A stretch of DNA of 64,000 nucleotides from assembly GCF_988243305.1 (NCBI RefSeq), contig NZ_OZ547136.1. One strand, given 5' to 3'. Both the position numbers and the translations under genes were made by a program. The notes beneath the pieces are model-generated. The model ran no database searches, was not told the DNA's origin, and saw nothing but the letters and a program-made list of their open reading frames with translations. The stretch's first letter is position 1; every line of letters begins with the position of its first letter. Below are positions 16,340 through 16,823 of this stretch, one piece after another.

Positions 16340-16823
16340 TTATACCTTTCCTTTTGTTAAAAAATCCAAGCAATATTGGCGATTATTTTTACATTCAGCT
16401 TTAACAAGTCACATTATTTAAATGAATAAAGCTGGTGTAGTTAACCACAGAAAAAAAATAAGAGATAGAATGGCTGGAAAATATTATATGAGCTGCTTGG
16501 TAATATAACTAAAAGAATCCATGCTCGCAATGATTGACTTTATATAAAAATACAGTCATTTGAAAACAAAGAGATTTATTTTAGACAGGATAACTGAAGA
16601 GTGGGGCAATATATAAATATAATAAATAATTTATTAGTTATTTATAATGCTTATTGTATGATACATACTCAGGTGAGAATCATTATTAAAAATTAATAAA
16701 TATGAATTATATATCGATGCTGTCTGTAAATTGTCATGACATATCGTTTATCTGATATAAAAATGCCGTGTGCCCATTAACGATAGCTTTGAGGGAACAC
16801 ACGGCAGTTATCACTTTGCAAAC

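What the first reader, a model, noticed from the sequence alone, without database searches (positions are those of the whole stretch)
16340..16823. Very AT-rich ~480-bp fimbrial upstream region with no linked regulator
The region upstream of the major pilin gene is extremely AT-rich with long A/T tracts, typical of silenced (H-NS-type) horizontally acquired promoters. It has no adjacent recombinase or regulator gene, so any phase variation would have to be methylation-based or in trans. It also contains a long-loop hairpin that may terminate glgP.
Basis: inference. Interest (0 to 1): 0.3.

Follow-up and report, generated by a model that had tools for sequence, protein, structure and literature searches.

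The report
AT-rich promoter region of auf fimbriae
This very AT-rich 484-bp gap is the ordinary control region of the known E. coli Auf fimbrial operon, carrying the terminator of the neighbouring glycogen gene, and in this strain the operon is already broken by insertion elements.

Summary
Window 16340-16823 is 28.3% GC against 50.5% for the window, the lowest of any 484-bp stretch. It lies between the glgP stop codon and the ATG of a 234-aa major fimbrial subunit, and no regulator or recombinase gene is nearby.

The locus is the known auf (aufABCDEFG) chaperone-usher operon in the glpD-glgP gap. This is the non-B2 allele, 99.4% identical to E. coli 042 in the gap. AufA is 84% identical to AufA of UPEC 536.

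The region holds four parts:
- a conserved glgP terminator hairpin (16765-16805, three compensatory pairs);
- a 224-bp core at 23% GC;
- a block conserved between alleles that carries the only shared sigma-70 candidates (16483-16530);
- a predicted 5' leader of about 135-155 nt.

There are no GATC sites in any allele or orthologue, so a Pap-type methylation switch is excluded. No inversion switch is seen either.

Published data fit silencing by an H-NS-family protein with a regulator acting in trans. The next gene rises 3.6-3.9x in 042 delta-hns2, and TosR induces auf in CFT073.

Here the usher is split by iso-IS10R and IS629, so the promoter is a relic. This is ordinary and of low interest.

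The parts
16824..19271 (-). glgP (glycogen phosphorylase). Its stop codon borders the region.
   Evidence: An 815-aa ORF, annotated glgP in matching E. coli genomes. It is 98% identical between auf alleles, and homology to K-12 ends 4 nt after the stop codon.
16765..16805 (-). Hairpin of the predicted glgP intrinsic terminator, carried on island DNA.
   Evidence: RNA fold gives -22.9 kcal/mol, z = -2.8. The UPEC 536 allele gives -26.4 kcal/mol, z = -4.5. The consensus structure has 17 pairs, 3 of them with changes on both sides, for example G-C to A-U. The consensus scan did not call it because the loop exceeds 8 nt.
16755..16764 (-). U-rich tail (AUUUUUAUAU) after the hairpin.
   Evidence: Read directly from the sequence. 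The 536 allele has AUUUCUAUAC.
16531..16754 (.). Extreme AT core upstream of the promoter block. Inferred binding platform for nucleoid-associated proteins, used for silencing and for counter-silencing.
   Evidence: 23.2% GC and TpA density three times the window mean. The sequence is poorly conserved between alleles (64-76%), but low GC is kept in all four lineages at 27-31%. No 10-11 bp A-tract phasing was found.
16483..16530 (-). Predicted core promoter block: P1 is TTGCGA-17-TATATT (16530..16502) and P2 is TAGTTA-17-TATAAT (16511..16483).
   Evidence: P1 is the top PWM hit. P1 and P2 are the only candidates found at the same distance from the ATG in both diverged alleles (162/161 nt and 143/142 nt). 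The block is the local conservation peak at 80%. No transcription start site data are available, so this is inference.
16451..16458 (-). Poly-T tract (T8 on the gene strand) in the predicted 5' leader, variable in length between strains.
   Evidence: It is the only indel among close alleles. Counts among the 226-227 genomes carrying this allele, requiring identical flanks: T6 = 2, T7 = 133, T8 = 32, T9 = 2.
16340..16482 (-). Predicted 5' leader of aufA, with its ribosome-binding site (AAGGAAAGG, 16345-16353).
   Evidence: The proximal 60 nt are 84-94% identical between alleles. ACAAAAGGAAAGGTA is invariant even in Citrobacter and in the distant orthologue L013.
15635..16339 (-). aufA, the major fimbrial subunit (non-B2 allele).
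   Evidence: Pfam Fimbrial, E = 1.4e-21. It is 84% identical to 536 AufA and 98% identical over 78% of its length to a protein named 'Auf fimbriae major fimbrial subunit AufA'.
14762..15514 (-). aufB, periplasmic chaperone.
   Evidence: PapD_N and PapD_C domains.
13968..14720 (-). aufC usher, N-terminal fragment.
   Evidence: The ORF matches the start of the intact 864-aa usher in E. coli genomes.
11330..13970 (.). Truncated iso-IS10R plus IS629, inserted in the usher gene (approximate ends).
   Evidence: Transposase ORFs at 11437-12654 (+) and at 12536-13426 and 13423-13749 (-). The best plasmid match is the Shigella flexneri 2a plasmid record AF386526, annotated iso-IS10R and IS629. No complete E. 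coli genome has this arrangement.
9478..11385 (-). aufC usher, C-terminal fragment.
   Evidence: ORF; collinear with intact ushers.
6494..9487 (-). aufD, aufE, aufF (chaperone) and aufG (tip adhesin-like protein).
   Evidence: Pfam Fimbrial, Fimbrial, PapD and Fimbrial. The gene order is the same as in intact operons.

Best explanation
The 484 bp are the regulatory gap of the auf chaperone-usher fimbrial operon and lie entirely on island DNA.

**Layout, read along the minus strand**
1. 19 nt after the glgP stop codon, a conserved GC-rich hairpin with a U-rich tail ends glgP transcription. It takes the place of the different canonical terminator found in K-12.
2. A 224-bp stretch at 23% GC follows.
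3. Next comes a block conserved between alleles that carries one or two sigma-70 promoters (P1 and P2).
4. A leader of about 135-155 nt ends in a strongly conserved ribosome-binding site before aufA.

**How it works**
Expression is kept low by nucleoid-associated proteins of the H-NS family, which coat the AT-rich DNA. It is raised by regulators encoded elsewhere in the genome, namely PapB-family proteins such as TosR that bind AT-rich DNA. There is no local genetic or epigenetic switch.

**Shown versus inferred**
- Shown: the anatomy, the composition, the identity of the locus, the conservation of the hairpin, the absence of GATC sites, inversion and a linked regulator, and the published expression changes in strains carrying near-identical or homologous regions.
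- Inferred: the exact promoter, direct H-NS or TosR binding, and terminator function.

In this particular strain the usher is disrupted by iso-IS10R and IS629. No Auf fimbriae can be assembled, so the control region is a relic.
For: **Locus identity**
- The seven-gene cluster lies between glpD and glgP.
- The literature places the auf operon in the glpD..glgP region (PMC12928451).
- AufA naming and identity are given.

**Composition**
- 28.3% GC, the lowest in the window.
- Low GC (27-31%) is kept upstream of aufA in four lineages, although the sequence itself diverges.

**Promoter**
- P1 and P2 are the only candidates at the same position in two alleles that are 73% identical across the gap.

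**Terminator**
-.
- K-12 and orthologue L013 each have a different hairpin plus U-tract at the same place.

**Silencing and control in trans**
- EC042_RS19660, the gene after aufA in strain 042, is up 3.6x at 25 C and 3.9x at 37 C in delta-hns2 (PMC7582179). The 042 gap is 99.4% identical to the window.
- Overexpressing TosR raises auf genes by log2 2.6-6.6, and aufA by log2 5.2 in qPCR. TosR is called the first known regulator of auf (PMC5956150).

**No local switch**
- No GATC sites.
- Only low-complexity inverted repeats.
- 227 of 228 close matches are collinear.
- There is no regulator or recombinase gene.
Against: - No transcription start site, ChIP or reporter data exist for this region.
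- The sigma-70 consensus scan found no more promoter-like sites than shuffled sequence gives.
- The 042 evidence is modest in size and concerns the paralogue H-NS2. The table legend and the text of PMC7582179 disagree on whether these genes also respond to delta-hns.
- TosR may act indirectly, and it was tested on the B2 allele, which is only 73% identical here.
- There is no close match to the high-affinity H-NS motif (best is 2 of 10 positions mismatched) and no A-tract phasing.
- The terminator has a large loop and an interrupted U-tract.
- Low GC could partly be the usual drift of non-coding DNA.
Confidence: 0.7

Rival explanations
1. A Pap-type epigenetic phase switch, in which Dam methylation of two GATC sites competes with Lrp binding to set heritable ON and OFF states.
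For: Many E. coli chaperone-usher operons (pap, sfa, daa, clp and others) use this mechanism. The region is long and AT-rich, like pap regulatory DNA.
Against: There are no GATC sites in 16340-16823, in the B2 allele, in strain 042, in the proximal 500 bp of the Citrobacter orthologue, or in L013. The nearest GATC sites lie inside glgP at 16838 and 16856. No papI- or papB-like genes are present.
Confidence: 0.01
2. A fimS-type invertible promoter segment, flipped by a recombinase encoded elsewhere.
For: Several imperfect inverted repeats flank 250-360 bp, for example 16388-16399 with 16719-16730 (12 nt, 83% complementary). Recombinases acting in trans, such as FimX and IpuA, exist in some E. 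coli.
Against: The repeats are short, imperfect and of low complexity, as expected in DNA at 28% GC. No recombinase gene is adjacent. Of 228 genomes with at least 95% identity, 227 align in one collinear piece and none shows an inverted segment. The one exception probably carries an IS5 insertion.
Confidence: 0.02
3. Slipped-strand tuning: changes in the length of the poly-T tract (16451-16458) alter auf expression, giving a mutational ON/OFF switch or rheostat.
For: The tract is the only indel among close alleles and ranges from T6 to T9. T7 and T8 both occur on otherwise identical 525-bp haplotypes, and on a second haplotype, so the change is recurrent. The B2 allele varies at a different T tract, T8 versus T9.
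Against: The tract is short for true phase variation. It lies 25-45 nt downstream of the predicted start sites, not in a promoter spacer. It is not conserved in position between alleles. Homopolymer length is also a common assembly error, and ordinary mutability explains the polymorphism without any function.
Confidence: 0.07
4. A plain, weak promoter with no silencing. On this view the low GC is only relaxed non-coding composition, and auf is low simply because the promoter is poor.
For: Promoter-like matches are weak: P1 matches 9 of 12 positions and P2 lacks a good -35 element. There is no close match to the H-NS motif and no sign of curvature. The hns2 effect is under 4-fold.
Against: Low GC is kept in four lineages despite sequence turnover. 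Induction by an AT-binding PapB-family protein is about 37-fold (PMC5956150). Cryptic E. coli chaperone-usher operons are in general repressed by H-NS (PMC3559732).
Confidence: 0.15
5. The gap encodes a small protein or a small RNA.
For: Seven ORFs of 26-68 aa overlap the region.
Against: No Rfam family matches below E = 0.5. The 29-aa ORF on the gene strand is frameshifted in T7 alleles and is not conserved in 536. The other ORFs are short and AT-driven.
Confidence: 0.02

Closest known systems
auf (aufABCDEFG) fimbrial operon of uropathogenic E. coli CFT073 and 536 (Buckles et al. 2004; Luterbach et al. 2018)
   Same: It has the same chromosomal site (glpD-glgP), the same seven-gene order, and AufA at 84% identity. 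The gap is homologous at 73% identity, with the same promoter block, ribosome-binding site and glgP hairpin.
   Different: This is the non-B2 allele found in strain 042 and about 227 other complete genomes. About 25% of nucleotides differ across the operon. The three extra hypothetical genes that follow aufG in strain 536 are absent. The usher is destroyed by insertion elements here.
Cryptic H-NS-repressed chaperone-usher operons of E. coli K-12 (for example ycb/elf, yad, sfm; Korea et al. 2010, as cited in PMC3559732)
   Same: It has an AT-rich upstream region and no dedicated regulator in the cluster. Expression is low in the laboratory, and there is evidence of derepression in a mutant of the H-NS family.
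   Different: Direct H-NS dependence has not been shown for this promoter. The only data are for the paralogue H-NS2, and the effect is under 4-fold.
The pap regulatory region (PapI/PapB, Lrp, Dam)
   Same: It is a long AT-rich gap before the major subunit gene, and it responds to a PapB-family protein (TosR).
   Different: There are no GATC sites and no papI or papB genes, so the Pap mechanism cannot operate.
The K-12 glgP intrinsic terminator (AACGGGGCC-AAAGG-GTCCCGTTTTTTT)
   Same: It is a hairpin with a U-rich tail placed about 10-20 nt after the glgP stop codon.
   Different: The sequence is unrelated. The stem is longer with a large structured loop, the U-tract is weaker, and it lies on island DNA that replaces the K-12 terminator and yzgL.

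Membership tests
auf fimbrial operon (regulatory region) | Located between glgP and glpD | tested here: met
   The window order is glpD (4467-5987), the auf cluster, then glgP (16824-19271). The literature places auf in glpD..glgP (PMC12928451).
auf fimbrial operon (regulatory region) | Seven genes in the order major subunit, chaperone, usher, two minor subunits, chaperone, adhesin | tested here: met
   Pfam domains and intact homologues agree. The usher is present here only as two fragments.
auf fimbrial operon (regulatory region) | Major subunit is an orthologue of AufA | tested here: met
   84% identity to 536 AufA. 98% identity over 78% of its length to a protein named AufA.
H-NS-silenced horizontally acquired promoter | GC content well below the genome average | tested here: met
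   28.3% against 50.5%; the core is 23.2%.
H-NS-silenced horizontally acquired promoter | Derepression when the H-NS-family protein is removed | tested here: inconclusive
   Published data only, in strain 042 (gap 99.4% identical). The aufB-like gene is up 3.6-3.9x in delta-hns2, and the paper contradicts itself on delta-hns (PMC7582179). The full expression table held for PMC5861252 is cut off before this gene.
H-NS-silenced horizontally acquired promoter | H-NS occupancy by ChIP or footprinting | not testable with these tools
   No dataset was found for a strain that carries auf.
H-NS-silenced horizontally acquired promoter | Strain-variable island DNA | tested here: met
   K-12 lacks it. 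227 genomes carry this allele and about 426 more show partial, lower-identity matches; all four of those inspected or named (536 and MS 16-3 read) are B2-type. Total 654 of 5426 genomes. The adjacency to glgP in the distant orthologue L013 suggests old ancestry with later losses rather than recent gain.
Pap-type Dam/Lrp phase switch | Two GATC sites in the regulatory region | tested here: not met
   No GATC sites in any allele or orthologue.
Pap-type Dam/Lrp phase switch | Linked papI- and papB-like regulator genes | tested here: not met
   None is present.
fimS-type invertible switch | Good inverted repeats flanking the promoter, with a nearby tyrosine recombinase gene | tested here: not met
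   Only imperfect AT-rich repeats are present, and there is no recombinase gene.
fimS-type invertible switch | Both orientations seen among genomes | tested here: not met
   227 of 228 close matches are collinear.
Homopolymer slipped-strand phase variation | Tract length varies between strains | tested here: met
   T6 to T9.
Homopolymer slipped-strand phase variation | Tract lies in a promoter spacer or a coding frame, so that its length gates expression | tested here: inconclusive
   It lies downstream of the predicted P1 and P2, in the leader. The real start site is unknown.
Rho-independent terminator | GC-rich stem followed directly by a U-tract, just after a stop codon | tested here: met
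   A stem of 9 GC-rich pairs plus inner pairs, followed by AUUUUUAUAU, 19 nt after the stop codon. The loop is larger than usual, so the simple scan missed it.
Rho-independent terminator | Structure conserved through compensatory changes | tested here: met
   3 of 17 pairs changed on both sides. These amount to only two independent lineages.

The most novel reading that the evidence does not exclude
The auf leader and promoter region could be a mutational tuning site. On this reading, recurrent changes in poly-T length (T6-T9), and occasional IS5 insertion at the TTAA at 16401-16404 as in strain SCU-313, would reset expression of an otherwise H-NS-silenced fimbrial operon. That would be comparable to IS5 activation of bgl, flhDC or glpFK.
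Probability: 0.06. Interest if true: 0.35.

Novelty: already known. Interest (0 to 1): 0.12.

Why it matters
It matters little. The region is the uncharacterised but unremarkable promoter gap of a named fimbrial operon, and that operon is inactivated in this strain.

The useful results are mostly negative. A Pap-type methylation switch and an inversion switch can be excluded from the sequence. Regulation must come from nucleoid proteins and from regulators encoded elsewhere, which fits the published TosR and H-NS2 data.

The conserved promoter block, the island-borne glgP terminator and the variable poly-T tract give concrete targets to anyone who wants to map auf regulation.

Tried and rejected
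- **Rfam scan** of 15500-17500 at E <= 1: only two chance-level hits.
- **Sigma-70 and terminator consensus scan:** promoter-like sites were not above the shuffled expectation, and the hairpin was missed because of its loop size.
- **H-NS high-affinity motif** TCGATAAATT with up to 2 mismatches: two weak hits inside the region, which is uninformative.
- **AA/TT periodicity at 9.5-11.5 bp:** not above shuffles (26% of shuffles reach it), so there is no evidence for phased A-tract curvature.
- **Exact-pattern scan of species-representative genomes** with the invariant 46-nt leader and start: no hits.
- **Peptide-pattern scan of the same collection with AufA:** the tool chose signal-peptide words, and none of the 107 candidates was confirmed.
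- **Buckles et al. 2004**, the original auf paper: not held.
- **042 RNA-seq per-gene table** (PMC5861252, Table S1): held only as far as EC042_RS09440, well before the auf genes.
- **Small ORFs in the gap:** rejected as coding, because they are frameshifted by the T-tract polymorphism and not conserved.
- **Citrobacter 1049-bp upstream gap:** checked for a hidden regulator ORF and nothing plausible was found.
- **A simple-insertion model,** in which the original K-12 glgP terminator now follows aufG: rejected. That sequence is absent downstream of aufG, so the island replaces both the terminator and yzgL.

Full report
**Observation.** Window 16340-16823 (484 bp) lies between two genes on the minus strand. 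One is an 815-aa glycogen phosphorylase gene (glgP, 16824-19271). The other encodes a 234-aa protein with a Pfam Fimbrial domain (15635-16339). The region is 28.3% GC against 50.5% for the window. Only 0.16% of 484-bp windows are as low, and the global minimum overlaps it. It holds 13 runs of A/T only that are at least 8 bp long, the longest 29 bp.

**What the locus is.** Megablast against 5426 complete E. coli genomes shows that the pilin gene heads a seven-gene chaperone-usher cluster. The order is major subunit, chaperone, usher, two minor subunits, second chaperone, then an adhesin-like subunit. The cluster sits between glgP and glpD.
- The literature places the auf operon in exactly this glpD..glgP region (PMC12928451).
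- The pilin is 84% identical to AufA of UPEC 536. It is 98% identical, over 78% of its length, to a protein deposited as 'Auf fimbriae major fimbrial subunit AufA'.
- There are two allele classes, about 25% diverged at the nucleotide level across the whole operon: gap 73%, aufA 79%, aufB 75%, while glgP is 98%.
- The window carries the non-B2 class, found in 227 genomes including EAEC 042, where the gap is 99.4% identical. About 426 further genomes give only partial, lower-identity matches. Those inspected (536 and MS 16-3) carry the B2-type allele.
- K-12 lacks the operon. Its homology to the window ends 4 nt after the glgP stop codon, where K-12 has a canonical terminator followed by yzgL. 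Homology resumes at a REP element near window 6160. The 484 bp are therefore all island DNA.

**State of the operon here.** The usher gene is split into fragments at 13968-14720 and 9478-11385 by a truncated iso-IS10R and an IS629. No complete E. coli genome shows this arrangement, and the insertion-element pair best matches a Shigella flexneri plasmid record. The window is thus probably from Shigella or from an E. coli rich in insertion elements. Auf fimbriae cannot be assembled in this strain, so the control region is a relic.

**Anatomy of the gap (minus strand, 5' to 3').**
1. *Terminator.* It starts 19 nt after the glgP stop codon. The RNA reads GCCGUGUG-UU-CCC...GGG-CACACGGC (16805-16765), followed by AUUUUUAUAU (16764-16755). 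The minimum free energy is -22.9 kcal/mol with z = -2.8. The 536 allele folds into a longer stem at the same place, at -26.4 kcal/mol and z = -4.5. The consensus structure has 17 pairs, three of which change on both sides. K-12 and a distant orthologue (L013) each carry an unrelated hairpin with a U-tract at this position. This supports the idea that the hairpin terminates glgP. The simple scan missed it only because its loop limit is 8 nt.
2. *AT core.* 16531-16754 is 23.2% GC, with TpA steps three times as frequent as in the window overall.
3. *Promoter block.* 16483-16530 is the conservation peak of the gap. It holds the best PWM promoter, P1 (TTGCGA-17-TATATT), and a second candidate, P2 (TAGTTA-17-TATAAT). 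These are the only candidates at the same distance from the ATG in both alleles, at 162/161 nt and 143/142 nt. The promoter assignment is inference.
4. *Leader.* It is predicted to be about 135-155 nt long. Its last 60 nt and ribosome-binding site are nearly invariant, even in Citrobacter.

**Switching hypotheses.**
- *Methylation switch.* A Pap-type Dam/Lrp switch needs two GATC sites. There are none in this region, in the B2 allele, in strain 042, in the proximal 500 bp upstream of the Citrobacter freundii orthologue, or in L013. No papI- or papB-like genes exist in the cluster.
- *Inversion switch.* The inverted repeats are short, imperfect and AT-driven. No recombinase gene is adjacent. 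Of 228 close matches, 227 are collinear in one orientation.
- *Slipped-strand change.* The only indel among close alleles is a poly-T tract at 16451-16458. With identical flanks the counts are T6 = 2, T7 = 133, T8 = 32 and T9 = 2. T7 and T8 occur on otherwise identical haplotypes, so the change recurs. However, the tract is short, lies in the predicted leader, and may partly reflect assembly error. A regulatory role is possible but unlikely.

**Silencing and regulation in trans.** No experimental data exist for this exact region.
- In strain 042 the gene directly after aufA (EC042_RS19660) is listed as up 3.6x at 25 C and 3.9x at 37 C in a mutant of the H-NS paralogue H-NS2. The paper's text and table legend disagree on whether these genes also respond to delta-hns (PMC7582179).
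- In CFT073 (B2 allele), overexpression of TosR raises auf genes by log2 2.6-6.6. TosR is a PapB-family protein that binds AT-rich DNA and is encoded in the tos island. The authors call it the first known regulator of auf and do not know whether it acts directly (PMC5956150).
- Cryptic E. coli chaperone-usher operons are generally repressed by H-NS (PMC3559732).
- Low GC (27-31%) upstream of aufA is kept in four lineages even though the sequence itself turns over. That fits a compositional function.
- Against this, there is no close match to the H-NS motif (best is 2 mismatches of 10) and no A-tract phasing.

Overall, silencing by H-NS-family proteins with counter-silencing by regulators encoded elsewhere is the best-supported mechanism. 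It remains an inference.

**Comparison and novelty.** The locus is a member of the named auf operon family, as a non-B2 allele. Its control region behaves like other cryptic, AT-rich fimbrial promoters without a dedicated regulator. It is not a member of the Pap or fimS switch families, because their defining features were tested and not met. Nothing here lies outside known kinds. The interest is low.

Noticed in passing
window 11330-13970 (within the usher gene, 9478-14720): The aufC usher is split by a truncated iso-IS10R and an IS629. The arrangement is absent from all 5426 complete E. coli genomes, and the insertion-element pair best matches a Shigella flexneri 2a plasmid record. The window is probably from Shigella or an E. 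coli rich in insertion elements, and the operon is dead.
   Followed up: partly
L014 (E. coli SCU-313), equivalent to window 16401-16404: One genome has an IS5 of about 1195 bp inserted at a TTAA, 62-65 nt upstream of the aufA ATG. This separates aufA from the predicted promoter and the AT-rich core. It could either kill or activate expression, as IS5 does at bgl and flhDC.
   Followed up: partly
window 16451-16458: A poly-T tract varies from T6 to T9 among strains with this allele (T7 = 133, T8 = 32, T6 = 2, T9 = 2). The B2 allele varies at a different T tract, T8 versus T9.
   Followed up: yes
window 16820-16826 and about 6160; L002 (K-12): The island boundary lies 4 nt after the glgP stop codon. 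K-12 has an unrelated canonical terminator plus yzgL in place of the roughly 10-kb auf island, so the island supplies the glgP terminator.
   Followed up: yes
L005 (E. coli 042), locus 1-675: In strain 042 the aufB-like chaperone is annotated as frameshifted, so the operon is also degenerate in the reference strain of this allele.
   Followed up: no
L010 (Citrobacter freundii) and L013 (unknown organism): AufA is a narrow family of 22 clusters. C. freundii carries the same seven-gene operon (AufA 77% identical) at a different chromosomal site, with a 1049-bp upstream gap. L013 (AufA 70% identical) is again next to glgP, which suggests the glgP adjacency is old.
   Followed up: partly
window 15635-16339: AufA is 234 aa, and its Pfam Fimbrial domain starts only at residue 62. 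The mature protein therefore carries an acidic N-terminal extension of about 35 aa, unusual for a major subunit and highly conserved between alleles.
   Followed up: no
window 34300-36700: This is the second AT-rich stretch of the window, with a minimum of 28% GC. It corresponds to the tssD(hcp)/yrhA/yrhB/yhhY region present in most E. coli.
   Followed up: partly
L003 (UPEC 536), locus 1-1671: The B2 auf allele is followed by three hypothetical genes. The two that were scanned have no Pfam match, and all three are absent from the window allele.
   Followed up: partly
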